In this document: positions 15,453 to 32,626 of the stretch, in pieces
How positions within the stretch are numbered: position 1 is the first letter of the stretch
Layout: the number at the start of each line of letters is the position of its first letter
Source: a virus
Taxonomy: Duplodnaviria; Caudoviricetes
Reading direction: 5' to 3' (one strand)
Virus record (IMG/VR): IMGVR_UViG_3300037400_005963
Coordinates: 64,001-128,000 of that record
Length of the DNA stretch: 64,000 nt
Program-made: the position numbers and the translations under genes
Notes under the pieces: model-generated
Database searches by the model: none
Told to the model about the DNA's origin: nothing
The model's input: only the letters and a program-made list of their open reading frames with translations

Positions 15453-15528
15453 AACAGATAGTTTCATTTTAGGTAAATTTGTAAAACTAACTCGGATCTG
15501 AGAAAGATGTGAGTTAGTTATTTTTTTT
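15453..15528 (+). ncRNA. Candidate antisense sRNA 1 (32-nt anti-start segment + GAGAA-loop hairpin + U-tract)
   Basis: Own promoter 15443-15453; stem AACTAACTC/GAGTTAGTT, inner ATCT-GAGAA-AGAT; no ORF. Confidence 0.65.
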
Positions 15529-15612
15529 CTATCCGCTAAATCTAAAATCCTATCATACCCTTATATGCAGAGATAATTAAAACTTATTATATTAATGAAA
15601 CTTTTTTATTAA

Positions 15613-16944
15613 ATGAGCAAAAAAACATCAACAAAGAAGAGTTATGTTTACTTGGCAGCAGAGGTAGATAAAAAAGGCAACCACATACACTACAAGATCG
15701 GTTGCTCTACCCAAGTAGAAAAGCGAGTAAATGGAAAAATCACGAGTGACAACGGGAATGACATCATCCTGTTGAAAAAGAAAGAAGGTGATCGCGAATT
15801 AGAGAGATACCTGATCTACACTCGATATAAAAAGTATCGAATCCACGGAGAATGGTTTTTACCAGATAAATTTATTTTCGCGGATTTTGATTCGGTCATC
15901 AAACCAGACGATGCAAAAGTTCTTATTGAGAATTATGAAAATGCACTGGACGAGAGTGGCCGAAGGCAGAAAGTTGAAAAAATTACTAAGATCTCCAAGA
16001 GAGAGATCAAGAAAGTGATGAAGAACTGCGGAGGATACACGTTGAAGCTTGAGGGCGGAGCACGTCATTTTATTGACATTAAGAAAGCCGTCAAGAATAA
16101 CGTTCCCCTGCTTACACCTTCATACAACCGCGTGCACGGTCCCGATCAACAGAGGACCGGCAAGAGTATAAGTCTGTATGGATCACAAGGTCCACTGATG
16201 GTTATTACGCCTATCATGGCGGATGCAGCCGGAATAGAATACAGACATTTTGATGGAACCAAGTGTTCCGCATCAGATAAGAAGACAGGTTTGGTCATCG
16301 TCGATGGTAATGGACGAGTAGATTACTTACTCAAAGTCCCATTTGAATATTGGCCAAAAACCTTAATCGCGAGCTTTCCTGTAGAAGATTGTTTGGGCTA
16401 TTACGATATTGCAAAAATAATTCAGGAAGTTAACGTAAACACGAAGCCCTGGCATACCGCAGATTATAATTTAATGAGAGCGATTGAAAGGGGCCCACAT
16501 CCGATGTTTGATTCAATCCAAGAAGCAAGAGCTAAAGGATATCCTTATAGCACAGCTTGTATAATCTATACGCTGAGGGATAATATTAAGAAGAGCACTA
16601 TTCTTGGAACGAAAGACAACGACGAACTTGCTGAAAACTATAAATACGCATTAATCGTCCACGAAGAGATGGTTAAGAAGTTTGGCGAGGGAAAAGACGG
16701 AGTGATTAAATCCATTAAGATATCTAAGTTAATTAGAGATCAATGGAATAAGTTTGTGGCATCTAGCGATGCCGATACAGCAACTAAGAGGATCTGTGAG
16801 TTCATAAGATCCATTTCTAAAGATGTAGTTGAGAGAATGCGAGAAGCAACTCCAACGACTACCAAGGAAGGGTTGAGAGTAACTCGAGATGAGGTACGTG
16901 AAAAAGAATTTTCGGTTGCCTTTGATATGTTCATTCATAAATAG
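15613..16944 (+). CDS. T5orf172-type GIY-YIG domain fused to a ParB/Srx-like domain
   Basis: YVYL...YKIGCS...VEKRV...LERYL...GEWF at the N-terminus; YNR...VIVDGNGR centrally. Confidence 0.7.
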   Translation: MSKKTSTKKSYVYLAAEVDKKGNHIHYKIGCSTQVEKRVNGKITSDNGNDIILLKKKEGDRELERYLIYTRYKKYRIHGEWFLPDKFIFADFDSVIKPDDAKVLIENYENALDESGRRQKVEKITKISKREIKKVMKNCGGYTLKLEGGARHFIDIKKAVKNNVPLLTPSYNRVHGPDQQRTGKSISLYGSQGPLMVITPIMADAAGIEYRHFDGTKCSASDKKTGLVIVDGNGRVDYLLKVPFEYWPKTLIASFPVEDCLGYYDIAKIIQEVNVNTKPWHTADYNLMRAIERGPHPMFDSIQEARAKGYPYSTACIIYTLRDNIKKSTILGTKDNDELAENYKYALIVHEEMVKKFGEGKDGVIKSIKISKLIRDQWNKFVASSDADTATKRICEFIRSISKDVVERMREATPTTTKEGLRVTRDEVREKEFSVAFDMFIHK

Positions 16945-16966
16945 ATCTTCTAAAGTTTAGCTTAAG

Positions 16967-17000
16967 GAAGGAGGGATTCGTATTATCCCCCTTCTTTTTC
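16967..17000 (+). terminator. Intrinsic terminator
   Basis: GAAGGAGGGAT/ATCCCCCTTC then a T-run. Confidence 0.75.
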
Positions 17001-17062
17001 TTTCCCCCTACACCCTTATATGCAGAGATAATTAATAATTTACTAATAAAAACAAAAATACT

Positions 17063-17296
17063 ATGACGACAACAATTAATCTAATTGCAGCCGGAGCTGC
17101 CGGTGCACACGTTGGTCAATACAGTGTTGCCAATAAGAAGGATCTCATTCTTGCTATTCAACAGGGATGGGATTATGCCCAAAGCGATCCCTCAATGTGG
17201 GACGCTCAGGAGATGGAAGTCCACGTTCCTGGTAAGGGATACGTAGGAAGTGATTGGAACATCCCAGCAATCTGTGAGAAGCTGGGACTTGAATAA
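17063..17296 (+). CDS. Hypothetical protein
   Basis: Own promoter (17014) and terminator (about 17298-17330). Confidence 0.7.
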   Translation: MTTTINLIAAGAAGAHVGQYSVANKKDLILAIQQGWDYAQSDPSMWDAQEMEVHVPGKGYVGSDWNIPAICEKLGLE

Positions 17297-17565
17297 AAAA
17301 AGTGGGGAATTAACTCCCTTCTTTTTTTATTTCACTCATGAGGGTTTTGAAAGAAAACCACAATACTAAGGAGTTTCCCTGAGCGAAAGCAATAAAAAAA
17401 TAAAAAGAATTCCTATCTATCTCAGACTGGAATTCTACTTTGGCAAACATTAGAAAAAATTTTCAATGATTCTTCATATATAAGAGTATGAAGGGATTTA
17501 ATTACGAAGTCGAGTTTTCCGATAATGAACCTCACCTCGAAGCTCAAGCGAGAGAGGTGATGGTG

Positions 17566-17747
17566 AATAGGAAAATGAGTTAAATGAAGAGGTTCTAACG
17601 AGACTTTGAGTGAAACGAAAAGGGGAGTAGGTTCTCTGAATGAATTATAAAGAAAAGAATTATAATATTCCATTCAAAGAACCTTAACAGATCCTCATTT
17701 CATTCGGATCCTTATAAGAACCTTTTCATTCAACTCTTCCTTCTATT
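17566..17747. other. Four-way cruciform, candidate replication origin element
   Basis: Arms 17566-17596/17717-17747 and 17629-17642/17671-17684; side hairpins with GAGTGAAACGA (top strand) and GAATGAAATGA (bottom strand) loops; AT-repeat at about 17830-17855. Confidence 0.55.
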
Positions 17748-17971
17748 TTTCTTATCTGTCCTCTTTGAGAGAGGCCAGGAAAAATATCAGAAAGAGGCTT
17801 CGCGAATAAAATAAAAAGATTTTCTAAAAAATATGATATATATATATTATATAAGTATTTCCCTCAAAGTTCCAATAAAATTAGAAAAATTTACTAAAAA
17901 AGGAGGTCATTTCCTAATACATAATTAGGGATACTCCTAACTTAATTTGATTAATTTTTAATATAAATTTT

Positions 17972-19984
17972 ATGAACAAAACAGTAATACAAATACCGAA
18001 GGGAATAAGATACATCTCGGATTTTGAAGAAAAGTATGGATTTCACTTAGAAGAATACCCATATATTTTAGATAAAAAATTGCCAGGTTGTGGGTTTACT
18101 ACTTGGGTTCTCACTAACTCTCAAAATATCATTCTAGCTAGTCCTAGAAAGATGTTAATGAGAAATAAAAAGGATCAGTTAGGCGATAGTATTTTCTTAG
18201 TAAATCTTCAATCGGTTGAACTAGATATAGACAAGGATTTAAATAAAAATACAAAAAGTAGTCAATCCAATAATTATATTCCAGTTTATGATAGAGCAGA
18301 ATTAAAAGCAAATCTATCAGAGTATATGTTGAAACGACAAGCAAAACAACTCCCTTGGAAAATAGTAGTAACTTATGATTCTTATCGAAAAGTAAAGGAA
18401 CTTTTGGAGGAGTTAAATATATTTCAAGAGTTCTATACTATCGTCGATGAGATGCAGAGTTTATGGGTTGATGTACGTTTTAAGCCTAGCACTGAGATAG
18501 AGTTTGTTGAATTACTAAAGACTGTTCAAAGGGTATGCTATGTTTCTGCTACCCCCATGATGGAAGAATATTTAGATTTAGTAGACTATTTCAATGTATT
18601 ACCTTATCATGAATTCGATTGGATTACCTTGGAACCGGATAGAGTAAAGGTTCCTAATATAATACCTAGAACACTTAAAAGCATTAACTTAGCTGCAAAA
18701 TCTATTATCCTTCCATATAAAGAAGGAAAATTTGAAAGTAAACTTCTGGAGAATCCTGAAACGGGGGAGATGGTAAATATAGAGTCTAGGGAGGCAGTTA
18801 TATATATTAATTCTGTCACTAATATAATAGGTATCATTAAAGCCTGTGGATTAAAACCGGAAGAAGTAAATATTCTCTGCTCTGATACACCTAATAATGT
18901 AAAAAGAATTGAAACTAGATTGAATAAAAAGAGACAGGGAATAATATATAGCATTGGTCGTGTTCCTACTAGAAATGAACCTAGGAAGATGTTTACTTTC
19001 TGCACCAGAACTGTTTATCTTGGGGCTGATTTTTACAGTGACAATGCTAGGACATTTATTTTCAGTGACGCCAATATAGATACATTAGCAGTGGATGTTG
19101 TTCTCGATCTTCCTCAAATCTTAGGTAGACAAAGGTTAATAGAAAATCCATGGAAAGATGAAGCGACTATCTATGTAAAGCCGACTATGAGATATAAAGC
19201 GATGAGTGAAGAAGATTTTAATAAAGAACTAGAAAGAAAATTAAAAGAAACACAGGATTTATTGACTTCTTATGAGAACACTCCCGATGACGCAAAGTTA
19301 AGTTTAGTTAGTCGTCTTGAAACTATAGCTAAAGATTATAATTATCGAGATGACTATGTATCCGTCAATCGTCACGCAGGATCTCAGCCAGTCCCTGTCT
19401 TTAATAATCTTGTTGCTATTGCAGAGAAAAGAGCCTTCGATATTCAACAAAAGGATTATGTTGATCGTGTTATGATTCTTAATAGAATAGCATCCAGTGG
19501 TTTTAATATAGTTACTAGACATAATGATACAATTCAAGATTTTCTTTATAGGCTTAACGAAATAAAGGGAACACGAAATAGACTCGAATTCATCTGTAAT
19601 AACTGTTCTAAGTTTTCTAAATCAGAACAGGAGGCTATTTTTGCCGAAATTTCAACCTTTTATAGAAACTTTTATTTGGGATTAGGTCCAGACAGATGTA
19701 AAGCGCTTAGTTATAATTATACACTTCTAAATAAAGAGTATAATACTAAGTTCTTTGATGTGGATTTAGTGAAGGAAAAGATTTTAGGAAAATTTCTAGA
19801 GGGGAGTAAATATTCGACGTCGAATATAAAATCAATCCTAAAAGATCTCTACTCTGAATTAGGTTATAAAAAGACACCTAAAGCCAGTGATCTAGAGGAG
19901 TATTTTGAATTGAAAAAGATTAAGACTAAAGATCAATCTGGGAAATGGGTTAATGGTTTTGAATTATTAAAAAAGAGACTGTGA
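17972..19984 (+). CDS. Superfamily-2 helicase-like protein (origin-binding/UL9-like type)
   Basis: KLPGCGFT (variant Walker A), IVDEMQ, VSATP, TVYLGADF, QILGRQR. Confidence 0.75.
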   Translation: MNKTVIQIPKGIRYISDFEEKYGFHLEEYPYILDKKLPGCGFTTWVLTNSQNIILASPRKMLMRNKKDQLGDSIFLVNLQSVELDIDKDLNKNTKSSQSNNYIPVYDRAELKANLSEYMLKRQAKQLPWKIVVTYDSYRKVKELLEELNIFQEFYTIVDEMQSLWVDVRFKPSTEIEFVELLKTVQRVCYVSATPMMEEYLDLVDYFNVLPYHEFDWITLEPDRVKVPNIIPRTLKSINLAAKSIILPYKEGKFESKLLENPETGEMVNIESREAVIYINSVTNIIGIIKACGLKPEEVNILCSDTPNNVKRIETRLNKKRQGIIYSIGRVPTRNEPRKMFTFCTRTVYLGADFYSDNARTFIFSDANIDTLAVDVVLDLPQILGRQRLIENPWKDEATIYVKPTMRYKAMSEEDFNKELERKLKETQDLLTSYENTPDDAKLSLVSRLETIAKDYNYRDDYVSVNRHAGSQPVPVFNNLVAIAEKRAFDIQQKDYVDRVMILNRIASSGFNIVTRHNDTIQDFLYRLNEIKGTRNRLEFICNNCSKFSKSEQEAIFAEISTFYRNFYLGLGPDRCKALSYNYTLLNKEYNTKFFDVDLVKEKILGKFLEGSKYSTSNIKSILKDLYSELGYKKTPKASDLEEYFELKKIKTKDQSGKWVNGFELLKKRL

Positions 19985-20006
19985 CACCCATAGAATCCTT
20001 ATATAT

Positions 20007-20075
20007 GAAGCATATTCACTTTGTTAATACAATTTCCTAACCAAACCTGAGATGGGCTAGGTTAGGTCTTTTTTT
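20007..20075 (+). ncRNA. Candidate antisense sRNA 2 (29-nt segment + GAGAT-loop hairpin + U-tract)
   Basis: Own promoter 19997-20007; stem CCTAACC/GGTTAGG, inner CCT-GAGAT-GGG; no ORF. Confidence 0.6.
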
Positions 20076-20142
20076 GTCCCTCCCATACCCTTATATATGT
20101 GATAATTAAATTATTCTAAAAACAAACTAAAAAATAAGAAAA

Positions 20143-20706
20143 ATGAAAGAAGAATTAGCTTGGAAAATTTATAATTTTATAAATTCCTGGAAAGCAGGCA
20201 AGTTTGGAGAAATTAGCCTACAAGAGGCTTTAGACTCAAATACAGACTTTGACATTACAATTATGGGGTCAAGTATGTTGCGAGTAATTCCTTTTAAAGA
20301 ACTACTGGATTTAGTCGCAAACGTGGATTATATAGTTCACGAATCTTATCCTATTCGCTTTAAAGTAAAAAATAATGAAGAGATAGTTAATTACGAGTGT
20401 GGTATAGCTGTTTGTGACAAAAACGTAAGTGAAGATTTAATAAATGACGAACTAGAAGCACAGTATTTAACTCGTCTTGAAAATATAAAAGAGAGATCTG
20501 TACTATTGGCACAGAATCCTGATGACATGTACTATGAAGAGATAGAGAAAGACTTGAGAGAGAAATGTAATATAACGGACGATTCCATTATTATCTTTGA
20601 AGATGATGTGAGTTTTACGGGAGAAAGGCCGTACTTACTTTATGGATCAAATAAAGAATTACAGTTAATTTATGACCCGGATGACGACGAAGATATTGAG
20701 TCTTGA
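20143..20706 (+). CDS. Acidic hypothetical protein
   Basis: Promoter 20089, terminator about 20708-20749. Confidence 0.7.
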   Translation: MKEELAWKIYNFINSWKAGKFGEISLQEALDSNTDFDITIMGSSMLRVIPFKELLDLVANVDYIVHESYPIRFKVKNNEEIVNYECGIAVCDKNVSEDLINDELEAQYLTRLENIKERSVLLAQNPDDMYYEEIEKDLREKCNITDDSIIIFEDDVSFTGERPYLLYGSNKELQLIYDPDDDEDIES

Positions 20707-20796
20707 TAGGAGAAGAGGAGAGGGTTTAAACTTCTCCTTTTCTTTTTTTCATCCCCACATATCCTTATAAATGAATTAATTATAAATATTTTACAC

Positions 20797-21183
20797 ATGA
20801 AAGAAGATTTTATATACAAATTTAGTGAGGAAGATTATTTTCAGAATCACATAGATGTTTGTCATCTGAAGGAAGTTTACACGTTCGATAAGTACCTCCC
20901 AATCGATAAGATTCTTGAGATCTTCGAGGGAATTAAGAAAGAGTGGGAAGGAAAAGATGCAGAGTTTTGTTTCGATTTCTACGATACCGATGACAGTGTG
21001 ACGCTTAGTGCTAAATACTGGGAACCGGAAACAGAGGAACAATTCACTAATAGACGAGCGAAAGAACTTTTTGATAAGCAGCAGGAGATTAATAAATTGA
21101 AATATCTAATGCTGACTTATCCAGATTATGCAGAAAATTTTATGAAAACTATTAAATCTGAGAAAGATGAAGATAACAATTAA
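20797..21183 (+). CDS. Hypothetical protein
   Basis: First gene after promoter 20763. Confidence 0.65.
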   Translation: MKEDFIYKFSEEDYFQNHIDVCHLKEVYTFDKYLPIDKILEIFEGIKKEWEGKDAEFCFDFYDTDDSVTLSAKYWEPETEEQFTNRRAKELFDKQQEINKLKYLMLTYPDYAENFMKTIKSEKDEDNN

Positions 21184-21352
21184 ACTTCAGGTTGAAATGG
21201 AATTCGACAGCTCTTTATCAGCTTTCCTTGATTTTGACGAACCAGGGAAAGAGGAGTTAAAAGAGATGGTAAAAGATTCCGTTGAGGATTATTTCTTATC
21301 TGAATGCATTGGCTATCAGAATGAGAATAAACTTAAAGTAACTGTGACGTAA
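21167..21352 (+). CDS. Hypothetical protein
   Basis: ORF track, overlaps neighbours. Confidence 0.55.
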   Translation: MKITIKLQVEMEFDSSLSAFLDFDEPGKEELKEMVKDSVEDYFLSECIGYQNENKLKVTVT

Positions 21353-21615
21353 TGGTCCTATACTTTATAATATCCCTGATAAACGTATTCTTACATATAG
21401 TTAGAAGTATTTTAGTAATTAAAGCAGGAAAATTCGTAGCTTCTCTGTCTAATTGCATCTGTTATACCTTCTCGGCTGTGGTAATAAAATTCATTGCCGA
21501 AAGTGACTTAATGGTTGCAATAATAGTACAGGCGACAACTAACTTCTTTGGTTGTTACTTAGCTATGATATTCTGCGATAAAATATTAAAGAAAAAACAC
21601 AATGAAGAATTTTAA
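21352..21615 (+). CDS. Small three-helix membrane protein
   Basis: Hydrophobic segments; TAATG coupling. Confidence 0.6.
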   Translation: MVLYFIISLINVFLHIVRSILVIKAGKFVASLSNCICYTFSAVVIKFIAESDLMVAIIVQATTNFFGCYLAMIFCDKILKKKHNEEF

Positions 21616-21913
21616 AGATTTTAAAGAGCGATTGAAAGTATGTTGGCATGTGCTAACTAAACAGAATTACGCATTTTTTGCAGTAAATGAAAATGCACTG
21701 GTCTTTGATGATAATGGTAACTACGATCACGTTCATGAAAGTGGAGTAGCGTCATATTCAAGTGTCCTTAACTCTTGGTTTTATAAGACTAGTGATGGAA
21801 AAAAGAAAACCTTCGGGTGGTTTTTCTGGGGATCTATTAAAGATTTCGCACAGTCGGAGGAACAAAAATACGAAGAGTCCGATGGAAACAGACGATCTGA
21901 AGAATCTGATTGA
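21602..21913 (+). CDS. Hypothetical protein
   Basis: ORF track. Confidence 0.6.
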   Translation: MKNFKDFKERLKVCWHVLTKQNYAFFAVNENALVFDDNGNYDHVHESGVASYSSVLNSWFYKTSDGKKKTFGWFFWGSIKDFAQSEEQKYEESDGNRRSEESD

Positions 21914-22232
21914 TGAACTTTGGGAACGACGACAATCTGAGCCGAAAACATCAATAAAGATCGAAGATGGCGAGGAAGAGAGTAGATTAAAAGTTATCTA
22001 TGCCGCAGGAGTGATTGATTACTTGATAAAGAGTAGTAAAGAAAATCGAATTCGTGAAGAGAAGATCATTCAAGCTACCTGCGATTGGATAAGGAAGCAT
22101 GATTATTTTGGAAAAGATCATGCTAAAACAGTAATCGAAGTCTACAAAAATTACATTCGAGAGATAATTAATTGTCTATTGAATGAAATTAAAGTACAAG
22201 GAGATCTAAGAGATGATAAGGAAAGACGATGA
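21882..22232 (+). CDS. Hypothetical protein (start moved to METDDL)
   Basis: The track start overlaps the upstream gene by 150 nt. Confidence 0.55.
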   Translation: METDDLKNLIDELWERRQSEPKTSIKIEDGEEESRLKVIYAAGVIDYLIKSSKENRIREEKIIQATCDWIRKHDYFGKDHAKTVIEVYKNYIREIINCLLNEIKVQGDLRDDKERR

Positions 22233-22341
22233 ATATTTCGGACTATCATAGAAAACAAAACGAAAGAGAAGAACGGCAGGGATTATCTTGCTTAGGTTGG
22301 ATTTTCCTTGCTTTCCTAGTATACTGTTTAATTATATTATT

Positions 22342-22572
22342 ATGAAAAATAAAAAGAAAAGAGATAGAGGAATAGCTTTTGGAAAGATATGGACAAAAGA
22401 GGATGATGGATTTTGGAGTATCGAATTCCGCTTCCTACCTAGCATCACATTATATCTGAACGGCTATAAATTTAAAGGCGGCGTTGATGATTATCAGCTT
22501 ACCTTTAGTTGGCTGTTATGGTATGTACAGCTCTACTCATTTGAAGTAGAAGATTGGGAGGACGAGGTATGA
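22342..22572 (+). CDS. Hypothetical Trp-rich protein (start moved to MKNKKK)
   Basis: A/T-rich start context. Confidence 0.55.
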   Translation: MKNKKKRDRGIAFGKIWTKEDDGFWSIEFRFLPSITLYLNGYKFKGGVDDYQLTFSWLLWYVQLYSFEVEDWEDEV

Positions 22573-22657
22573 ATGATTACAAAAAGATCATTAAGTGTAT
22601 AGGATTTTTCCTCTTGGGATTATTAATTGGTTATTTAATAATTAATCTAATAATATT

Positions 22658-23464: not shown

Positions 23465-23466
23465 AT

Positions 23467-25051: not shown

Positions 25052-25227
25052 AACTATTACAAATTATTTGTGGATTATTTGGACATAAGTGGGCATTCTA
25101 CACTAAAGGACAGATGTGTAAGCGATGCGGCAAAAAGAAAAACATGGATAAATGGTACTACGAAATTAAAGAAGACAATAAACAAAACGAACAGATTATT
25201 AAACTTCAAGATTATGGAGAAATTTAA
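25048..25227 (+). CDS. Small Cys/His protein, DUF1660-like (not in track)
   Basis: MKLLQIICGLFGHKW...CKRCG. Confidence 0.55.
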   Translation: MKLLQIICGLFGHKWAFYTKGQMCKRCGKKKNMDKWYYEIKEDNKQNEQIIKLQDYGEI

Positions 25228-25978
25228 TGTAGCAAATTTTTTAGAGAACGCTCCTATAGGACTTGTACTATATTCAAAGTTCTTAGGTGAGCAGGTAGAG
25301 TTCAATAAGGTTATTCTTCATGAGTTCTCAGAGTATGAAGGTTCTCAGCATATCATTGAGTGTCTCAAGTATGATAATGATGGCAATCTTGATGATGAGA
25401 AGGTATTCTTTGATGCTTATGGGAGAATTAAGACAAGTTTCTACGGGAATATCATTGGTACTGATGTTGACCTGATGCCTGACGATGTAAATGAATGGAA
25501 TGATGCTGGTATCTGCGCACTTATTAGTGAAAATTCTATGTGTGTCGACAAGGTGCTCATGGATAGGTTTGACCCAGATGATGATTTAGAATCTCCTTGG
25601 TTCATTGGTAATACTGCTATGTGGAGTTTTGATAATGCATTCGACAATGACTGGTCAAGTGTAAGATTCCATAAGTTTGACTTTAGCAATGTTCGCTTTG
25701 CCACTGAAGAGGAGACTCAAGAATTTTTTGATATATTACATAAGTATGGTTCTGATTTCAAGGATGGTAAGCCAATTAAAGATGGTAAGGATGCTGAACC
25801 AGAATGCAGAAATGCTGATAAAGAACAATTCTTTAATGCGCTGACCGATATATGTGACGCTTGGAAAGGAACAATTCCTGACCATGACTTCCAGGAAGTA
25901 CTATTCAAATTTGATACAGAGGTGGTTTTACCGGAACTTAAGAAAGCATTTGGTTGGAACTCTGAAATCATAAAATAA
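25214..25978 (+). CDS. Acidic hypothetical protein (start moved to MEKFNV)
   Basis: ORF track. Confidence 0.65.
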   Translation: MEKFNVANFLENAPIGLVLYSKFLGEQVEFNKVILHEFSEYEGSQHIIECLKYDNDGNLDDEKVFFDAYGRIKTSFYGNIIGTDVDLMPDDVNEWNDAGICALISENSMCVDKVLMDRFDPDDDLESPWFIGNTAMWSFDNAFDNDWSSVRFHKFDFSNVRFATEEETQEFFDILHKYGSDFKDGKPIKDGKDAEPECRNADKEQFFNALTDICDAWKGTIPDHDFQEVLFKFDTEVVLPELKKAFGWNSEIIK

Positions 25979-25988
25979 AGATTGAGAT

Positions 25989-26225
25989 ATGACATTTATA
26001 ATTATTTCATTAGCAATTGGTGTTGCATATTTTGGCCTTTACTGGTTAATTTCAGAGGAGATTAAAGACCATAAATATGAAGTTATGAATAAGCTCAAAT
26101 TGATTGAGAAACAGAATAATCTGTTACGAGAAGAAGTCAACGAGTTACGATCCCAGCTTGATGACACGTGGACAGATGTAAAGGTGATTAAGAATAATGT
26201 TAAGAATAATATTAATAAGGAATGA
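25989..26225 (+). CDS. Membrane-anchored coiled-coil protein
   Basis: N-terminal TM helix plus heptads. Confidence 0.6.
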   Translation: MTFIIISLAIGVAYFGLYWLISEEIKDHKYEVMNKLKLIEKQNNLLREEVNELRSQLDDTWTDVKVIKNNVKNNINKE

Positions 26226-26398
26226 CACAAGAACAAAAAGAAAAAATACGCAATATATTATATAATAACAAGTGTATTGCTGATTATAAAGAAGAAGATC
26301 CCTTTGTTGGAATATACTTCAGTGACTTGATTGACTTATTAGAAGATTATAAACTTGACTTAATAAATGCGATAGATTATGAACCAAGACCAATTTAA
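26222..26398 (+). CDS. 58-aa hypothetical protein (not in track)
   Basis: MTQEQKEKIR..., ATGA overlap. Confidence 0.5.
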   Translation: MTQEQKEKIRNILYNNKCIADYKEEDPFVGIYFSDLIDLLEDYKLDLINAIDYEPRPI

Positions 26399-26416
26399 TG
26401 AAATAAAGATTGAGAT

Positions 26417-26656
26417 ATGAAACTTATAACATATATATATGCTATAATTATATGTTCTATATTATCTCTTATTGTAATAATGCTTCTTATTATCGGCTTT
26501 CCATTTGCTGTTATTGTTGAAGTTATAACTTTTATTAAAGAAGCTATTTCAGAGGATGGATTTGAACATGGTGTTTGGCTTAAGCTATGTAAAGATTGTT
26601 TTATGTACATTAAACACGTGTATTGTTTAATTATTAATAGTCCTTATGAAGATTAA
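26417..26656 (+). CDS. Membrane protein
   Basis: Long hydrophobic N-terminus. Confidence 0.55.
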   Translation: MKLITYIYAIIICSILSLIVIMLLIIGFPFAVIVEVITFIKEAISEDGFEHGVWLKLCKDCFMYIKHVYCLIINSPYED

Positions 26657-26659
26657 GAT

Positions 26660-27043
26660 ATGAAAAGTTATACTAACATAGAAGAATCAAAGAAGTTGGC
26701 TGAGATACTGCCACCTGAGAGTGCAGATATGTGTTGGGGCATAAGTGATGAAACATTAAAATGGAAAACATTTCCATATTTATTGCCTTGGCGTGATTAT
26801 ACAGCAAAGGAACATTATCTTCCCTGTTGGTCACTTGCTGCACTGCTTGACCAATTAGATGATGTGATATGTGACAAAAATGGATATGAATATAAATTAG
26901 AGATCATTAAAGAAGGTGTGCAGTATTATTTAGTTTATGAGGGGATGCTTGATGCTGCATGTTATGAAACTTCTGTATTTGATGATCTCATTGATGCTTG
27001 CATTGAAATGATTTTTATACTTAAAGAAAAAGATTTAATATGA
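26660..27043 (+). CDS. Paralog family C protein
   Basis: T.IE.SKKL...ADM.W...P.WSLAALL...LKEKDL, shared with 27216. Confidence 0.7.
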   Translation: MKSYTNIEESKKLAEILPPESADMCWGISDETLKWKTFPYLLPWRDYTAKEHYLPCWSLAALLDQLDDVICDKNGYEYKLEIIKEGVQYYLVYEGMLDAACYETSVFDDLIDACIEMIFILKEKDLI

Positions 27044-27215
27044 AGATAAAATACATGAAAGGTAAAAGAAACAGATATAAATTTCCAATAGGTATTTATA
27101 TTTCTAAAATTCCTATTTATCCTTTAAATGATGGTAAGATTGAAAGTTATCATAAAAATATGAGAACAATAAACTTTAGAATTAAAAGAAATGTTTATAC
27201 TATTTTTATAAAAAT

Positions 27216-27566
27216 ATGAACAAGATTTGCACAGACATAGAACAATCTAAGAAACTTATTGAGTTAGGCATTGATGTCAATACTGCGGATATGATGTGGG
27301 ATGATTGGAGTCTTATTGATGAAGGATGGAAATCAATTGTTGGTTACTATCCTGAAATCGAAAAAGATTATGGAAGAAAATGCTATCCTGCTTGGTCGCT
27401 TGCGGCATTGCTTGAACAATTTGAAGATACAGTGGGATTAGCAAAAGATTATGGATTATGGTTTTGCTATGATAACAGAAAATCATATTGTTCAAAGCAT
27501 TATGATAACCCTGTTGATGCTGCTGTTGAAATGTTTAATAAACTCAAAGAAAAAGATTTGTTATGA
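27216..27566 (+). CDS. Paralog family C protein
   Basis: Same motifs as 26660..27043. Confidence 0.7.
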   Translation: MNKICTDIEQSKKLIELGIDVNTADMMWDDWSLIDEGWKSIVGYYPEIEKDYGRKCYPAWSLAALLEQFEDTVGLAKDYGLWFCYDNRKSYCSKHYDNPVDAAVEMFNKLKEKDLL

Positions 27567-27739
27567 AACCAGAAGAAGAAATCAAACAAGAACAGGATAA
27601 TATTGCCCGTGCTAGAATTATGGCATGTAAACAGTGCAGATATTATTATACTGGATGCATGTTTTTTGGCTGTTGTGCAATTTATAATTATCATATGCAA
27701 CAGATTCATGAACTTGAAAAAGAAAGAAAATCAAAATGA
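27563..27739 (+). CDS. Small Cys-rich protein (not in track)
   Basis: MKPEEEIK...CKQC...C...CC; ATGA overlaps on both sides. Confidence 0.5.
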   Translation: MKPEEEIKQEQDNIARARIMACKQCRYYYTGCMFFGCCAIYNYHMQQIHELEKERKSK

Positions 27740-28137
27740 CAAGAGAAGAAAAAGACTTGGTACTCCATGACCTCTGTGCGAGGTTGCCTTATAGGGTAAT
27801 TGGAGAATATTCTTGGAAAGGAAATGAACCTTATAATAGAGAATTAACAGGTTCTCTATTTGACGAATTAAAATCTTCATGGGATTCGACGGAAGACAGT
27901 GAATTTTTGCCTTACCTCCGTCCAATGTCAAGTATGACCGAGGAAGAGAAGAAAGAATATCAATCTCTATGTGTAATACATTCTGACCATGATGCTGATG
28001 ATAATGTCACTTATTATTATTTTGATACCGTTGAGTCGTTTGACTATCTTAATAAGAATATGTTTGACTACCGAGGTCTCATTGATAAAGACCTTGCATT
28101 AAGTACTGAGATATATAACCCTTATTATAAAGATTGA
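27736..28137 (+). CDS. Paralog family A protein
   Basis: DLCARLPY...PYLRPMSSMT...MFDYRGLIDKDLALST. Confidence 0.75.
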   Translation: MTREEKDLVLHDLCARLPYRVIGEYSWKGNEPYNRELTGSLFDELKSSWDSTEDSEFLPYLRPMSSMTEEEKKEYQSLCVIHSDHDADDNVTYYYFDTVESFDYLNKNMFDYRGLIDKDLALSTEIYNPYYKD

Positions 28138-28140
28138 ATT

Positions 28141-28344
28141 ATGGATGATGATTGGAACGTTAAACAAATTGTAGGTTTTGTGCTTATGATTTTCAGTGGG
28201 TTGGTAGGACTTGTAGCACTTATAGTTCTCTTATGCAAATTTTTAAGAGGAGAAATTGTTGGAGGTATATTGCTTGTGTTGATGATGATAACAGGAATCT
28301 ATCTCTGGAAGAAAGGTTCAAAAGAAAATAATAAAAAAGATTGA
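28141..28344 (+). CDS. Small two-helix membrane protein
   Basis: Two hydrophobic helices, basic tail. Confidence 0.6.
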   Translation: MDDDWNVKQIVGFVLMIFSGLVGLVALIVLLCKFLRGEIVGGILLVLMMITGIYLWKKGSKENNKKD

Positions 28345-28347
28345 GAA

Positions 28348-28557
28348 ATGGTAAGCAAAGAAAAACGAGATGAGGTTTTTGAACATAACAAACCTTATCT
28401 GAAGGACAAGGATACAATGGAAGACTTGCTTCCAATCTGTGAGAGGTGTGAACAATGGTGTGGCAAGGAGCACGACTTTGAGGATTGCCGAAATCAACCA
28501 TGTTTTGAACTGTGGTTGAGTAACGAATACTTGGAGTGGTGTGAATCATTTAAATAA
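28348..28557 (+). CDS. Small Cys-rich protein
   Basis: CERCEQWC...C...C. Confidence 0.6.
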   Translation: MVSKEKRDEVFEHNKPYLKDKDTMEDLLPICERCEQWCGKEHDFEDCRNQPCFELWLSNEYLEWCESFK

Positions 28558-28577
28558 TCCCAATTAAAATTGATATT

Positions 28578-29636
28578 ATGGACTACGAAAGAAAATACAA
28601 AGAGGCTCTTGAGAGAGCATCAAAGATTTGTAATAGTGATTTTGAACCAAATGATAAATCAATATTATGTTCTATTATCTTCCCCGAACTCAAAGAGAGC
28701 GAGGACGAGAAGACAAGGAAAGACCTTACTGAATTTATTAAGAGTGCTTCAGGTGGATTCTTAAACTCTACAATACCGTGCAAAACATTCGGAGAATGGC
28801 TCGAATGGCTTGAAAAGCAAGGTAAAAAGTCTGTAAATATAGATGTTGAATCTATGGTAAGTTCATATGAACAAAGACTTGAAAGTCAAGGTGGTACAAA
28901 GTATACTCCTCTTGTTAATATGCGCTTAACTGCTTTTAGACATGGTGTTGAAAATGTATTAGATGAACTAAATTTAAAGAAACTTGAAAAGCAAGCTGAA
29001 AAAAAGCCTGCTGATAAGGTTGAACCAAAGTTTAAGGTTGGTGATTGGATTATTGCCACCGGTGAAGTGGTTTATCAAATAAAAGATATTCAAGGTCCAA
29101 ATGTTACTCTTATAGAGCCAAACGGAGATGAAAGTATTTTTGACATAAGTGTTTTAGATGACGCAAAGTTATGGACAATCGCTGACGTAAAAGATGGCGA
29201 TGTGCTTGTTGATGAGGACAATAACATAGGTCTTTATTTAGAAGAAAAGGATGATGTATATTGGCATTCTTGCATTTATCTTGGTTGCGATAATTGTCTT
29301 CGTGGCTTTAGTATAGGCGGTTATCATAAGCATAAAAATACTAAACCAGCAACTAAAGAGCAACGTGACCTGTTATTTCAGAAAATGAAAGAAGCGGGTT
29401 ACGAATGGGACAGTGAGAAGAAAGAATTGAAGAAAATTGAGCCAAAGAAAGTTAATGCCAATAAGGTAATTAATTGGGTTAATCCCGATAAGGTAATTGA
29501 ATGGCTGAAAGGTAGGATAAGAGAGACGAAAGAATATTTTGGTGAACATGGTGTATATTACGATACCCATTTGACATTACCTTATAGTTCTATTGAAGAC
29601 CTTATTAATGATTTTAAGGAAGATTTCGGACTATGA
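28578..29636 (+). CDS. Modular hypothetical phage protein
   Basis: FPELKESEDE, KFKVGDW, WTI.D.KDGDVL, PATKEQRDLLF segments. Confidence 0.7.
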   Translation: MDYERKYKEALERASKICNSDFEPNDKSILCSIIFPELKESEDEKTRKDLTEFIKSASGGFLNSTIPCKTFGEWLEWLEKQGKKSVNIDVESMVSSYEQRLESQGGTKYTPLVNMRLTAFRHGVENVLDELNLKKLEKQAEKKPADKVEPKFKVGDWIIATGEVVYQIKDIQGPNVTLIEPNGDESIFDISVLDDAKLWTIADVKDGDVLVDEDNNIGLYLEEKDDVYWHSCIYLGCDNCLRGFSIGGYHKHKNTKPATKEQRDLLFQKMKEAGYEWDSEKKELKKIEPKKVNANKVINWVNPDKVIEWLKGRIRETKEYFGEHGVYYDTHLTLPYSSIEDLINDFKEDFGL

Positions 29637-30040
29637 CAGAAGAAGAATTAATGATTGGTGACCTTGTACAAGTAAATGACGAAGTATGTAAGGTTATATC
29701 AATATCGTATTTTGACATTGGGATATCTGACAGTAAAGAAGATTTCTACAATGAGCATATTGATAACATTAAGCCCATTCCTCTTACCACAGAAATCTTG
29801 GAGAAAAACTTCGACTCCGAGAAAGTTGACTTCGAGGGACGTCATATCAGCACACGATACACTGACCGCAATGAGTTCCGTGACATCGTGATTGCTGAAT
29901 ATACTGACGGGATGTGGGAAGTTAAGATTGACGATGTAGATTTCAGTGACCCTCCGACCTGGAAGGTATATGTCTGTGACGTCCACGAATTGCAACACGC
30001 ATTGAGACTATGTAGTATTAATAAAGAAATTAAATTATGA
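29633..30040 (+). CDS. Paralog family B protein
   Basis: ELMIGD...IKPIPLT.EILEKN...VHELQHALRLC. Confidence 0.7.
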   Translation: MTEEELMIGDLVQVNDEVCKVISISYFDIGISDSKEDFYNEHIDNIKPIPLTTEILEKNFDSEKVDFEGRHISTRYTDRNEFRDIVIAEYTDGMWEVKIDDVDFSDPPTWKVYVCDVHELQHALRLCSINKEIKL

Positions 30041-30309
30041 AAAAGAAAAAAGACGACAAAACACTTGGATTGCTGGTATGGGCAATTGTTAGTGCCATCA
30101 TAATCGGCTTTTGCTGGTCGTGTGTAGAGAAGAACGCTGACGGCTCCATCCCCCTTAATAAGAACACAGAGGGCAGTTATTCATTGTCCGAATACCGTCA
30201 AATCGTTATTGACTCTTGTGAATATATCGAGGCGAACTATGCTCTATCTCATAAGGGAAATTGCAAGTTCTGTGCTGAGAGAAGAAAGAAAGAGCTTAAA
30301 GAAGAATGA
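30037..30309 (+). CDS. Membrane/lipoprotein with HKGNCxxC tail
   Basis: N-terminal hydrophobic helix ending in Cys. Confidence 0.6.
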   Translation: MKKKKDDKTLGLLVWAIVSAIIIGFCWSCVEKNADGSIPLNKNTEGSYSLSEYRQIVIDSCEYIEANYALSHKGNCKFCAERRKKELKEE

Positions 30310-30402
30310 TATGACACCAGAAGATGAAGACAAATATTATGATTATTTTAGATATTGGTCAAAGGAACTTAGAAAAGATATTTTAAAAGAGTTATTAAAA
30401 AT

Positions 30403-30879
30403 ATGAATCAAGAAGTTAGACAAAAGTTAGTAGAGAGATGGGTAAATCCCGAGGATGTACAGTATCTAGATGAGGCTATTGAGAGCATCAATAAGCGTCG
30501 TAGTAAACAATATCAACATAAGTATGATATTACCAAGCCTCAGAAAACAAAGAGGTGGGAATACGTCTTCACCGAGAATGATGACCCCTATGATGCAGAT
30601 ATTGATGTTACCGTTGATCACGCCATCACAATGCTAAATCAGTTTAAGACAAAAGGTTATCCATATGTTGGATATGAGGACGAAGAACTAATTGTATATC
30701 GATATGAACTTGAAGCTGCAAGTGAATGGGCAAAGAAGATTAAAGGTGACATCTTACGAGAAATCAGTTCTGTTAAGAAGAGCCACAACACTCGTGAACA
30801 GAAGGTTGCTAAGATTGAAAAATTAGAGAAACAAATAGAAGAACTTAAAAAAGAATTAGAACAAGATAAAGATTCTTAA
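30403..30879 (+). CDS. Hypothetical protein with C-terminal coiled coil
   Basis: ORF track. Confidence 0.6.
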   Translation: MNQEVRQKLVERWVNPEDVQYLDEAIESINKRRSKQYQHKYDITKPQKTKRWEYVFTENDDPYDADIDVTVDHAITMLNQFKTKGYPYVGYEDEELIVYRYELEAASEWAKKIKGDILREISSVKKSHNTREQKVAKIEKLEKQIEELKKELEQDKDS

Positions 30880-31057
30880 TTATGAGTGAGCAGCAGAAAG
30901 ATATGTTAATTGCTTGGTTTGATAATATAAAGCAGATGGCAGATAAGAGACCAAGTAATGACCTGAAAGAAGTATTAGAAGCAATTAGTACCTATGCAGA
31001 GATGTGTAAGGGAGATGTTAAGAATATGTTTTACTCTGACAATTTATCGTAGAAATT

Positions 31058-31303
31058 ATGACAGAAAAACAATTTGAAAAGGCACTTAAATTAAGTAATG
31101 CGCTTAATTTAATCAATAAGACTTTAGAAGTTGTACCAGTTCTTAATCCCTCGGGTACTACAAATCACGTTGATCTGCGTTTTACTGATACTTGCGAGAA
31201 TAAAATTATTGCAAAATTAGCATACGACTTATTTCCAGAAGAATTCAAGGAATTACTATATAGGAAGAAAAAAGAACTAGAAGAAGAATTCAAAAAATTA
31301 TGA
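31058..31303 (+). CDS. Hypothetical protein
   Basis: Resembles the last module of 22658..23464. Confidence 0.6.
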   Translation: MTEKQFEKALKLSNALNLINKTLEVVPVLNPSGTTNHVDLRFTDTCENKIIAKLAYDLFPEEFKELLYRKKKELEEEFKKL

Positions 31304-31482
31304 CAGAAGAACAAAAGAACTTAATAGTAATTAGGTATGAGATCGAGAAAAGAATCGAGCTCTATGAGACAGAAAGAAGAGAAGAAGGTTTGTCTCAAAT
31401 AGATAAAATAAGTCTTGGTGCTAGAATTGCTGCACTTCAAGAATTACTAGTTTTCATAAAAGGATTAGATAAGACTAATTAA
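31300..31482 (+). CDS. Hypothetical protein
   Basis: Followed by terminator GGAGGGCC/GGCTCTCC. Confidence 0.55.
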   Translation: MTEEQKNLIVIRYEIEKRIELYETERREEGLSQIDKISLGARIAALQELLVFIKGLDKTN

Positions 31483-31530
31483 GGGAGGGCCAAAATAAGG
31501 CTCTCCATTTCTTTTTAAATTCTTATATGT

Positions 31531-31607
31531 GATAAAAAAATTTTTTTCATTTCATTCTTATTTATCTAGTTCATGTTCGGGAGGAATGTGAACTAGATTT
31601 TTTCTTT
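31531..31607 (+). ncRNA. Candidate antisense sRNA 3 (33-nt segment + 15-bp hairpin, GGGAG loop)
   Basis: Promoter 31521-31531; ATCTAGTTCATGTTC-GGGAG-GAATGTGAACTAGAT; U-tract; no ORF. Confidence 0.7.
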
Positions 31608-31661
31608 CAAACCCTTATATATAGAGAGAAATAACATTTATTTTAATAAAAAAACAAAATT

Positions 31662-32519
31662 ATGATTACAAACAGAATGAGTTATGAGGAAATCTTAGAA
31701 GAAATAAAAAAAGATTTCCCTAATCAAAGAGAGTTTATTAAGAAACTCAGTTATCAATTTGATAAGACCTTTAATAGGAAGACTCAAATGCAGTCAAGAA
31801 TAAAAGGTCTTCGGAAAAGAGGAATCTACAACATCAATGTAGATCTTATTCCCCTAATGCACTATAAATTTAAAAGTGCTAGAGGAAATCAATATTACGC
31901 ACTGCACTTAGTAAGATTAGATGCAGAGTATGGCGAAACTAGAATTTTTGCGGTTCTTCCACCCAAAACATCAAGTGGAATCGGAGAATATGCAAAATTA
32001 AATCTAGATCCAATGACGGGTTATATTGGGATCGGATATATTATAACTTCCCATTACATTGATCGAATCCGTCAGAGGTGTGAGAAATTAAAAAACATTT
32101 CATCAGACCTAGATGATATTTTAACTGATGCCCCCAGTAATAGTGAGATAATAGATTACTTCTCATCTCAAATATCTGCGGACAGAGAAATAAAGGTATC
32201 TAATACTCTAGGTCTTAGGAGAGGACTTTGTATATTTGATTCTTCACAATTTAAAGATCGGGAAACTCTTATTCCTACTCTGAAACTTGGATATGTAGGA
32301 ATAGACATAATAAGTCCTGAAAATATACCGGGATGTATCTTTATATACCGAACTTATATTCAAGAGCCGAGAAAAAGACAAAAGGCTCAATTAAAGGAAT
32401 ATAGGGAGATAAAAGAGACTTCCAAGGAAGAGAAGCAGTATAAATATGTGAAGGAAAATTATAAAATGTACGATTTCCTAATCGAAAGAAAACGTTTAAT
32501 GGAGGAGAATGGGGATTAA
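31662..32519 (+). CDS. Hypothetical protein
   Basis: Own promoter 31613 and terminator. Confidence 0.7.
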   Translation: MITNRMSYEEILEEIKKDFPNQREFIKKLSYQFDKTFNRKTQMQSRIKGLRKRGIYNINVDLIPLMHYKFKSARGNQYYALHLVRLDAEYGETRIFAVLPPKTSSGIGEYAKLNLDPMTGYIGIGYIITSHYIDRIRQRCEKLKNISSDLDDILTDAPSNSEIIDYFSSQISADREIKVSNTLGLRRGLCIFDSSQFKDRETLIPTLKLGYVGIDIISPENIPGCIFIYRTYIQEPRKRQKAQLKEYREIKETSKEEKQYKYVKENYKMYDFLIERKRLMEENGD

Positions 32520-32549
32520 TTTCCCATTTCCTTTTATTTCCTTATAGTT

Positions 32550-32626
32550 GAATAAGATTTTTACATTTCATTTTTGTTTACCTAGTTCATGTCCGAGAGG
32601 GATGTGGACTAGGATTTTCTTCCTTT
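32550..32626 (+). ncRNA. Candidate antisense sRNA 4 (31-nt segment + 14-bp hairpin, GAGAG loop)
   Basis: Promoter 32540-32550; CCTAGTTCATGTCC-GAGAG-GGATGTGGACTAGG, homologous to sRNA 3 with pairing-preserving changes. Confidence 0.7.

What the first reader, a model, noticed from the sequence alone, without database searches (positions are those of the whole stretch)
15453..32626. Family of guide-like phage sRNAs: variable ~30-nt anti-start-codon segment + conserved G(A/G)GAN hairpin
Seen: four stand-alone units (15453-15528, 20007-20075, 31531-31607, 32550-32626), each made of a phage promoter, a 29-33-nt U-rich segment, a hairpin with a 5-nt loop (GAGAA, GAGAT, GGGAG, GAGAG) and a U-tract, followed by a separate promoter for the next gene. 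The reverse complements of the 5' segments read like A-rich Bacteroidetes translation starts: ttacaaatttacctaaaATGAAACTATCTGTT (MKLSV), aaattgtattaacaaagtgaatATGCTTC, aaataagaatgaaATGAAAAAAATTTTTTTATC (MKKIFLS, like a signal-peptide start) and taaacaaaaATGAAATGTAAAAATCTTATTC (MKCKNLI). I found no matching gene start in this window. Hairpins 3 and 4 differ by pairing-preserving changes. Inference: a modular, reprogrammable antisense system (variable guide plus constant protein-binding handle, with a boxB-like pentaloop) silencing host mRNAs such as defence or receptor genes. Caveat: CAT is common in AT-rich DNA.
Basis: partly seen in the sequence, partly recalled or inferred. Interest (0 to 1): 0.9.

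Follow-up and report, generated by a model that had tools for sequence, protein, structure and literature searches.

The report
Family of small phage RNA genes
An uncultured giant phage carries at least five tiny gene-less units, each with its own promoter and terminator, that probably make related RNAs of about 70 bases; one is kept almost unchanged in related phages, but nothing shows that they are programmable guides against host genes.

Summary
The four units are real. Each has a promoter site as good as those in front of the phage's genes, then 29-34 T-rich bases, a strong hairpin with a T-run, and a second promoter for the next gene. I found a fifth unit at 17397-17498 (-) and one in a distant relative. 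Family traits are the promoter, the size (66-73 nt) and a G-R-G-A-N pentaloop: 10 such terminator hairpins in 530 kb against about 1 expected.

The u3 RNA body is unchanged outside its loop (0 of about 60 positions) in a phage whose neighbouring gene is 82% identical in DNA, while the unit's flanks differ at about 8 of 32 positions. Something selects this sequence.

The "variable guide plus constant handle" reading is only partly supported. u3 and u4 are homologous along their whole length. u1, u3 and u4 share one octamer, TTTCATTT, rather than each carrying its own anti-start. u2, u5 and the relative's unit do not look start-like in antisense. No phage target beats shuffled controls. The host is unknown, the loops are not boxB-like, and relatives lack u2 or the u3/u4 unit.

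Best reading: accessory small-RNA genes carried in mobile promoter/terminator cassettes, target unknown. No expression data could be obtained. This scan has noted similar ORF-less units in other large phages.

The parts
15430..15528 (+). Unit u1. P1 promoter with CTTATA at 15444, starting 4 nt after the stop codon of ORF 15146-15439. Predicted RNA about 15453-15528. The 5' arm contains TTTCATTT at 15462. Hairpin 15485-19 with loop GAGAA, then a run of 8 T.
   Evidence: P1 17.1 bits. Identical in two other samples apart from T-run length.
15546..15577 (+). P2 promoter of the 443-aa gene (15613-16944; T5orf172/MUG113 domain).
   Evidence: 26.2 bits
19984..20075 (+). Unit u2. P1 (CTTATATATGAAG) 13 nt after the stop codon of the 670-aa gene. 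RNA about 20007-20075. Hairpin 20036-20066 with loop (U)GAGAU, then a run of 7 T. It is the weakest member.
   Evidence: z = -0.69; -11.4 kcal/mol; 13.4 bits. Absent after the 85%-identical homologue in L009.
20076..20107 (+). P2 promoter of the 187-aa gene (20143-20706).
   Evidence: 27.3 bits
31484..31506 (+). T1, the ordinary terminator of the upstream operon. It lies before the P1 of u3.
31508..31607 (+). Unit u3. P1 with CTTATA at 31522. RNA about 31531-31607. The 5' arm is A7 then T7 then CATTTCATTC. Hairpin 31564-31598 with 15 pairs and loop GGGAG.
   Evidence: 23.8 bits. The RNA body is 92-95% identical in L029, L031 and L032, and the 5' arm matches at 33/33 or 32/33 positions.
31600..31631 (+). 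P2 promoter of the 285-aa gene (31662-32519).
32527..32626 (+). Unit u4. P1 with CTTATA at 32541. RNA about 32550-32626. TTTCATTT at 32566. Hairpin 32581-32613 with 14 pairs and loop GAGAG. It is a paralogue of u3 and sits at the position of the relatives' unit, upstream of the 320-aa gene.
   Evidence: 24.7 bits. A 2-T insertion in the 5' arm occurs in a 99%-identical strain.
32619..32650 (+). P2 promoter of the 320-aa gene (32689-33651).
   Evidence: 29.2 bits, the top site
17397..17498 (-). Unit u5, newly found. P1 (CTCTTATATATGAAG, C at 17484), then about 35 nt, then hairpin 17406-17436 with loop GAGAT, then TTTTTATTTT. It overlaps the 3' end of the predicted but unverified 83-aa ORF 17422-17673 (-).
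   Evidence: 24.3 bits
54435..54586 (-). A longer ORF-free unit of the same design. P1 with CTTATA at 54572, then about 130 nt, then a terminator, then P2 (54397) and the ATPase gene.
   Evidence: (12.3 bits)

Best explanation
u1 to u5 are stand-alone small-RNA genes of a giant phage. The phage is probably a Bacteroidota phage: GC is 34%, leaders are A-rich with no Shine-Dalgarno sequence, and it carries a DUF3943 gene.

Each unit is read from the same promoter class as the neighbouring early or accessory genes. Each ends at its own intrinsic terminator, giving an RNA of about 66-73 nt. The RNA has an unstructured U/A-rich 5' arm of about 30-35 nt followed by a 13-15-bp hairpin with a G-R-G-A-N pentaloop. 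For u1, u2 and u5 the hairpin also terminates the upstream gene, as in 3'-UTR-type sRNAs that have their own promoter.

The units sit in terminator-plus-promoter cassettes at the joints where gene content differs between relatives. They therefore travel as ORF-less cassettes.

Shown:
- motif-level promoters and terminators
- absence of ORFs
- family traits
- selective conservation of the u3 RNA body

Inferred: the RNA acts in trans through its single-stranded 5' arm. The most likely mode is pairing with A-rich translation-start regions. UUUCAUUU in u1, u3 and u4 is complementary to AAAUGAAA, and GibS works this way in Bacteroides (PMC7366714). The target, whether host or the unseen 58% of the phage, is unknown.

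My odds are about 0.45 that these are functional trans-acting RNAs, and about 0.25 that the mechanism is pairing at start regions.
For: - P1 sites score like real gene promoters, and the motif is kept in relatives.
- The hairpins with T-runs are strong.
- No ORF of 50 aa or more overlaps the units, and no Rfam family matches.
- G-R-G-A-N pentaloop terminators number 10 in 530 kb. The reversed-loop control gives 1. About 1.2 are expected among the 256 terminator hairpins with any 5-base loop. Other intergenic terminators mostly have A/T-rich loops of about 7 bases.
- u3 against L029: 0 changes in about 60 non-loop RNA positions, against about 8 in 32 positions of the P1 core and the tail after the hairpin (counted). 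The neighbouring gene is 82% identical in DNA and 68.5% at third codon positions.
- u3 and u4 keep the stem through compensatory changes.
- The same architecture, with loop GGGAT, occurs in a relative whose 670-aa homologue is only 45% identical.
- TTTCATTT occurs three times on the + strand of 14.6-45 kb, all inside units.
- TTCAT is enriched in seven further ORF-free units: 7 occurrences against 2.65 expected, p = 0.01.
Against: - There is no transcript evidence.
- No target was found. Phage start regions pair no better than with shuffled arms, and there is no near-perfect match in 401 Bacteroidota genomes.
- Only u3 has informative orthologues. u1 is known only from near-identical strains.
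- The units are missing in L009 and L033.
- u2 is weak in both promoter score and fold.
- A 2-base insertion in the u4 arm in a 99%-identical strain shows that this arm tolerates change.
- Some of the extra units used for motif enrichment were picked by other first readers for CAT-containing sequence, so that test is not fully independent.
Confidence: 0.45

Rival explanations
1. The units are empty PeSL-like regulatory cassettes. The early region is built from terminator-plus-promoter composites that serve as recombination joints. A P1-to-T2 unit is what remains when the ORF between two composites is lost. Any short transcript is then a by-product with no role of its own.
For: - About 25 terminator/T-run/CCC/CCTTATA composites flank the small genes.
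- The units sit exactly where relatives differ. The 285-aa gene occurs only in this phage, relatives have different genes upstream of the unit, and L009 has a different gene after the 670-aa homologue.
- The unit is absent in L033.
- PeSLs behave this way in T4-type phages (PMC2839356, PMC4122927).
Against: - A leftover should drift, yet the u3 body shows 0 changes in about 60 positions while its own promoter core and tail differ at about 25% and third codon positions nearby differ at 31%.
- This reading leaves the shared pentaloop and the octamer unexplained.
Confidence: 0.22
2. The units are cis-acting control modules. Transcripts from P1 normally stop at T2. A phage or host factor that recognises the 5' element and the pentaloop allows read-through into the next gene, which would then have two modes of expression (nut-like or attenuator-like).
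For: - Every unit lies directly upstream of a gene.
- A linear element followed by a pentaloop hairpin recalls boxA plus boxB.
- The late gene at 14637 (-) also has a promoter followed by a long leader with a terminator.
Against: - A full-strength P2 follows every unit, so read-through is not needed.
- The downstream genes are unrelated.
- The hairpin is itself the terminator, with a 13-15-bp stem.
- Only 1 of 4 loops fits GNRNA.
- L033 expresses the same gene from P2 alone.
Confidence: 0.1
3. The units are protein decoys or sponges. The UUCAU-rich arm or the G-R-G-A-N loop titrates an RNA-binding protein, such as a host translation factor, an RNase or a defence sensor. This would fit the counter-defence genes nearby.
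For: - The recurring short motifs are shared while the flanking sequence varies.
- A Tad3 (Thoeris inhibitor) domain gene lies 1.3 kb downstream of u4.
- The 63.7-kb RNA carries several UCAUU copies.
Against: - No candidate binding protein was identified.
- The whole u3 arm is conserved, not only the motif.
- The motif statistics are modest (p = 0.01-0.02).
Confidence: 0.1
4. This is a reprogrammable guide-plus-handle system in which each 5' arm is an independent antisense guide to a host start codon and the hairpin is a constant protein-binding handle.
For: - Arms differ between members, while the promoter start and loop context can be identical. u2 and u5 share TATATGAAG and CTGAGAU but have unrelated arms and stems.
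- u1, u3 and u4 look start-like in antisense.
Against: - u3 and u4 arms are homologous.
- One shared octamer explains the start-likeness.
- u2, u5 and the L013 unit are not start-like.
- The stems are not constant.
- The loops are not boxB-like.
- No target and no handle-binding protein were found.
Confidence: 0.06
5. The units are tiny protein-coding genes read from NTG at +7 to +9 of the promoter. For example, the u3-type unit would give MIKKFFSFHSYLSSSCS.. (18-19 aa).
For: - The frame is open in u3 (GTG start) and in L029, L031 and L032 (ATG start). The one arm substitution is synonymous, TTA to TTG (read).
- u2 has an 11-codon ORF.
Against: - NTG at that position is part of the promoter consensus itself.
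- u1 has no ORF.
- The u4 frame runs through the terminator, and the 2-base insertion in L008 breaks it.
- The stop codons lie inside the hairpin.
Confidence: 0.03

Closest known systems
GibS and other trans-acting sRNAs of Bacteroides thetaiotaomicron (PMC7366714)
   Same: Both are intergenic, AT-rich small RNAs. GibS uses a conserved single-stranded seed in its 5' portion to pair with translation-start regions that lack a Shine-Dalgarno sequence.
   Different: GibS is chromosomal, has validated targets and is a single gene. These units are phage-borne, form a multi-copy family, have no known target, and are not shown to be expressed.
Small non-coding RNAs found by RNA-seq in large lytic phages: LUZ7 sRNA1-3 (PMC9163698) and phage K snc001-007 (PMC9241854)
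   Same: They are ORF-less phage transcripts in intergenic space. The LUZ7 ones are defined by their own start sites and terminators. Their function is mostly unknown.
   Different: Those were detected as transcripts. No family sharing a loop and an arm motif is described in the passages I read.
PeSL promoter/stem-loop cassettes of T4-type phages (PMC2839356, PMC4122927)
   Same: Both are repeated composites of an early promoter and a stem-loop. They flank small accessory genes and mark insertion/deletion joints between relatives.
   Different: PeSLs use sigma-70 promoters and flank ORFs. Here a cassette encloses a conserved ORF-less 70-nt body. Recombination was not observed directly.
Phage lambda nut site (boxA plus boxB with the N protein)
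   Same: Both have a linear element followed by a hairpin with a purine-rich pentaloop.
   Different: boxB has a 5-bp stem and a GNRNA loop and is not a terminator. Here the stems are 13-15 bp with T-runs, 3 of 4 loops end in U or G, and no boxA or N-like protein is known.
Short phage antisense RNAs: lambda OOP, P22 sar, P1/P7 c4 (from my own knowledge)
   Same: They are RNAs of about 70-77 nt, some made from a dedicated promoter and terminator, that act on ribosome-binding regions.
   Different: OOP and sar overlap their target on the opposite strand. No gene lies opposite u1-u4, and no trans target was found.

Membership tests
Trans-acting base-pairing sRNA gene | Own promoter and own intrinsic terminator, with no ORF | tested here: met
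   Promoter matrix scores of 13-25 bits. Hairpins with T-runs. No ORF of 50 aa or more. This is motif-level evidence only.
Trans-acting base-pairing sRNA gene | Single-stranded seed conserved above the neutral rate | tested here: met
   Met for u3 only: the arm matches at 33/33 and 32/33 positions against 68.5% identity at neighbouring third codon positions. u1, u2, u4 and u5 have no informative orthologues.
Trans-acting base-pairing sRNA gene | Identifiable complementary target | tested here: not met
   190 phage start regions and the whole 156-kb record give nothing better than shuffles. 401 Bacteroidota genomes give no near-perfect match. The host and 58% of the phage genome are unseen.
Trans-acting base-pairing sRNA gene | A discrete transcript | not testable with these tools
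Lambda-type nut/boxB | GNRNA pentaloop on a short stem that does not terminate | tested here: not met
   The loops are GAGAA, GAGAU, GGGAG and GAGAG. The stems are 13-15 bp and are followed by T-runs.
PeSL-like mobile regulatory cassette | Repeated promoter-plus-stem-loop composite in an accessory-gene region | tested here: met
PeSL-like mobile regulatory cassette | Located at insertion/deletion joints between related phages | tested here: met
   Joints at u3/u4 and u2
PeSL-like mobile regulatory cassette | Recombination products (mini-circles) | not testable with these tools
   Needs inverse PCR on infected cells.
Cis-antisense phage RNA (OOP or sar type) | Overlaps its target gene on the opposite strand | tested here: not met
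   No opposite-strand ORF of 50 aa or more at u1-u4. The reverse strand gives only 9-11-codon frames (read).
crRNA-like RNA or RNA anti-CRISPR (solitary repeat) | Hairpin equals a host CRISPR repeat and is the same in every unit | tested here: inconclusive
   The stems differ between u1/u2/u5 and u3/u4, which argues against a single repeat mimic. Host repeats could not be compared.

The most novel reading that the evidence does not exclude
The phage makes a family of anti-start RNAs. Their U-rich arms, built around a UUUCAUUU core, occlude AAAUGAAA-type start regions of host mRNAs or of the phage's own late mRNAs. The conserved G-R-G-A-N pentaloop recruits a dedicated protein partner. This would be a phage-encoded, multi-member translational take-over system in a host phylum that lacks Shine-Dalgarno-based initiation.
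Probability: 0.1. Interest if true: 0.8.

Novelty: new variant of a known kind. Interest (0 to 1): 0.45.

Why it matters
Small RNAs of lytic phages are being seen more often, but almost none has a known role. I know of none described for giant phages of Bacteroidota. This case offers a compact, multi-copy family with clear promoters and terminators, a family-specific loop, and one member under unusually strong sequence constraint. That makes a good entry point for experiments on phage RNA regulation where translation starts without a Shine-Dalgarno sequence. It also shows that promoter/terminator cassettes, known as shuffling joints in T4-type phages, can carry an RNA gene instead of an ORF.

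Tried and rejected
- Sequencing runs.
- Phage database. A megablast search of the phage collection found nothing.
- Relatives through the 596-aa protein (11353-13143) and the 320-aa protein in viral contigs: none.
- Relatives through the 670-aa protein are mostly 37-47% identical, too distant to hold the units.
- Exact 21-base piece of u3 in viral contigs. It matched two contigs with the same sequence around the match, from an unrelated phage, where it lies opposite a gene's first codons. I read this as chance level.
- Host identification. The IMPDH-like gene gave only 29-53% matches in unrelated taxa.
- 187-aa protein. The representative search gave relatives of at most 51% identity over most of the protein, and only a short N-terminal stretch matched at 56-77%. 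No u2 orthologue could be fetched. Two contigs with the exact protein had no DNA available.
- Pairing of each arm with its own downstream leader is not significant. The u1 9-base match has p = 0.13.
- The 17.7-kb segment against the start region of the Zn-ribbon gene gives -29.8 kcal/mol, but 8 of 250 shuffles reach this and its promoter scores below 8 bits. It is a lead only.
- Micro-ORF reading: rejected (see rival explanations).
- A covariance model was not built. MAFFT misaligned u2 and the L013 3' arm, and the descriptor scan already answered the question.

Full report
**Setting.** The window is bases 64001-128000 of a 156.5-kb virus record that CheckV rates 42% complete, so this is a giant phage. 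GC is 34% and leaders are A-rich with no Shine-Dalgarno sequence. Late structural genes run leftward up to 14.6 kb. From there small genes of mostly unknown function run rightward.

**The promoter class.** CCTTATA is over-represented, with 40 copies against 15.0 +/- 3.6 expected. It is the core of a longer motif: TCCC, then 6 bases, then CCTTATAnnTGA. That motif sits just after terminator T-runs and 27-94 nt before start codons throughout 14.6-63.7 kb and again at 69.9-90 kb. Relatives keep the motif at the same places. It partly resembles the Bacteroidetes -7 element TAnnTTTG quoted in PMC7366714. Which polymerase reads it is unknown.

**Check of the observation.** All four units are as described. 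A weight matrix built from 26 gene-proximal promoters, none of them a unit's own promoter (P1), places the P1 sites of u4, u5 and u3 at ranks 16-18 of all positions on both strands (24-25 bits). u1 scores 17.1 and u2 13.4, all within the training range of 13-29 bits. The hairpins fold at -11 to -21 kcal/mol and are followed by T-runs. u2 is the weak member: its whole-unit z-score is -0.69 and its loop is ambiguous. The predicted RNAs are 66-73 nt long.

**Family traits and new members.** Other intergenic terminators in the record mostly have A/T-rich loops of about 7 bases, while the four units have GAGAA, (U)GAGAU, GGGAG and GAGAG. I scanned 530 kb (this record plus the loci from relatives) for hairpins with at least 9 pairs, a G-R-G-A-N pentaloop and a T-run.
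- The scan gave 10 hits. The reversed-loop control gave 1. Terminator hairpins with any 5-base loop numbered 256, of which about 1.2 would be G-R-G-A-N by base composition.
- The hits include u1, u3 and u4, the three orthologues of u3, and two hits, in L033 and L022, that I did not examine further.
- One further hit is a new unit, u5, at 17397-17498 (-). Its promoter start (TATATGAAG) and loop context (CTGAGAU) match u2, but its arm and stem are unrelated to u2.
- Another is a unit in L013, a relative whose 670-aa protein is only 45% identical. It has the full layout: P1, about 40 nt, a hairpin with loop GGGAT, a T-run, P2 and a gene.
- u5 overlaps the end of a predicted 83-aa ORF. u1 and u2 start 4 and 13 nt after a stop codon. 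In these three the hairpin therefore also ends the upstream gene.

**Conservation.** The 285-aa gene between u3 and u4 has only a 99%-identical homologue. The 320-aa gene has homologues at 62-83% identity.
- Three of their contigs (L029, L031, L032) carry a unit directly upstream of that gene. The unit is of the u3 type.
- From GATAAAAAAA to the end of the stem, L029 differs from u3 only at two loop positions (GGGAG against GAGAT). L031 and L032 add one change at the base of the stem and one U-A to U.G change.
- The arm matches at 33/33 or 32/33 positions and the RNA body is 92-95% identical. The adjacent gene is 76-82% identical in DNA, and 68.5% at third codon positions for L029.
- Within the same block, the P1 core differs at 3 of 13 positions and the tail after the hairpin at about 5 of 19 (counted). 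So the constraint falls on the RNA body, not on the cassette as a whole.
- u4, which sits at the orthologous position and shares P2 with the relatives, is only 76% identical to u3. It keeps the stem through two compensatory changes.
- The genes flanking u3 and u4 are not paralogues, so the unit itself was duplicated.
- The units are dispensable. L033 (62% identical) has only a terminator and P2 at that site. L009 (85%-identical 670-aa homologue) has another gene abutting where u2 would be.

**The anti-start idea.** I scored the arms in antisense with the phage's own start-site matrix.
- u1, u3 and u4 reach p = 0.02-0.05 against shuffles. u2 does not (p = 0.24-0.40).
- u5 (p = 0.16-0.22) and the L013 unit (p = 0.56-0.58) do not either.
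- The signal comes from one shared octamer, TTTCATTT. It occurs three times on the + strand of 14.6-45 kb, all in u1, u3 and u4. Across the whole record most other copies lie opposite genes, and one more lies in the promoter-proximal leader at 14.8 kb (-).
- The shorter TTCAT is enriched in seven further ORF-free units: 5 of 7 units against 2.2 expected (p = 0.023), and 7 occurrences against 2.65 (p = 0.010, dinucleotide shuffles). Some of those units had been picked by other readers for CAT-containing sequence.
- The motif is complementary to AAAUGAAA, the consensus start context here.

**Targets.**
- Against 190 predicted phage start regions, no arm pairs better than shuffled arms. The fraction of shuffles reaching the observed energy is 0.18-0.58.
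- Exact complementary words of 10-13 bases in the 156-kb record do not exceed the shuffle expectation.
- The arms' own downstream leaders give nothing.
- A 23-base piece of u3 has no perfect match in 401 Bacteroidota genomes. The best match has 1 mismatch, and by my rough tally the reversed control gives about half as many hits.
- The host could not be named.

**Interpretation.** The promoters, the terminators, the family-specific loop and the selective conservation of the u3 body point to real small-RNA genes whose sequence matters. Their position at variable joints and their patchy presence point to carriage in mobile promoter/terminator cassettes like the PeSLs of T4-type phages. Pairing of a single-stranded 5' seed with start regions that lack a Shine-Dalgarno sequence has precedent in Bacteroides. 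ORF-less small RNAs are known from RNA-seq of large lytic phages.

The guide-plus-handle system, the boxB analogy and the silencing of host defence genes are not supported by anything I could test. A purely by-product reading does not explain the conservation pattern. A protein-decoy role cannot be excluded.

This scan has noted similar ORF-less promoter-to-terminator units in other large phages. I did not check those notes.

Noticed in passing
window 33944-34726 (+): This 260-aa protein has a Tad3 (type I Thoeris inhibitor) domain (E = 1.8e-20). It lies 1.3 kb downstream of u4, so this region carries counter-defence genes.
   Followed up: partly
window 35573-36286 (+): DUF3943 domain (E = 1.8e-38). 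From memory this family is largely confined to Bacteroidota, which fits the presumed host phylum.
   Followed up: no
window 14638-14830 (-): An early-type promoter (CTTATA at 14824) drives a leader of about 180 nt. The leader has TTTCATTT in a hairpin loop, then a long hairpin with a T-run, directly before the first late-region gene (14637, -).
   Followed up: partly
window 63723-63962 (+): A promoter (17.5 bits) is followed by an ORF-free RNA of about 180 nt. The RNA is closed by a 13-bp terminal stem (GAGCATGACTGAG / CTCAGTCATGCTC), holds several TCATT copies, and ends at a terminator at 63919-63962.
   Followed up: partly
window 17690-17810 and L009:1-120: This intergenic stretch is about 93% identical between phages whose adjacent 670-aa protein is 85% identical. 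Its + strand segment 17720-17757 is complementary (10 exact bases, -29.8 kcal/mol) to the start region of the Zn-ribbon gene 600-1400 (-). 8 of 250 shuffles do as well.
   Followed up: partly
L006:8131-8302 and L007:8106-8235: At the position of u2, just after the 670-aa homologue, distant relatives carry tandem ORF-free repeats of 86-94 bases, each with a CCAAAAAA...TTTTGG inverted repeat.
   Followed up: partly
window 15137, 42301, 44673 (+) and genome position 87243 (-), beyond the window: Several promoters have the gene's ATG only 7-13 nt after the C of the CTTATA/CTTATT core. This suggests leaderless or near-leaderless mRNAs.
   Followed up: no
window 20143-20706 (+): The first ~35 residues of the 187-aa protein match at 56-77% (most near 70%) to many otherwise unrelated small proteins in the 1.8-billion-protein library. 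This looks like a shared N-terminal module.
   Followed up: no
window 15596-15613 (+): The leader of the 443-aa gene holds a 5-codon upstream ORF (ATGAAACTTTTTTATTAA). Its start is complementary over 9 bases to the u1 arm. This is not significant (p = 0.13).
   Followed up: yes
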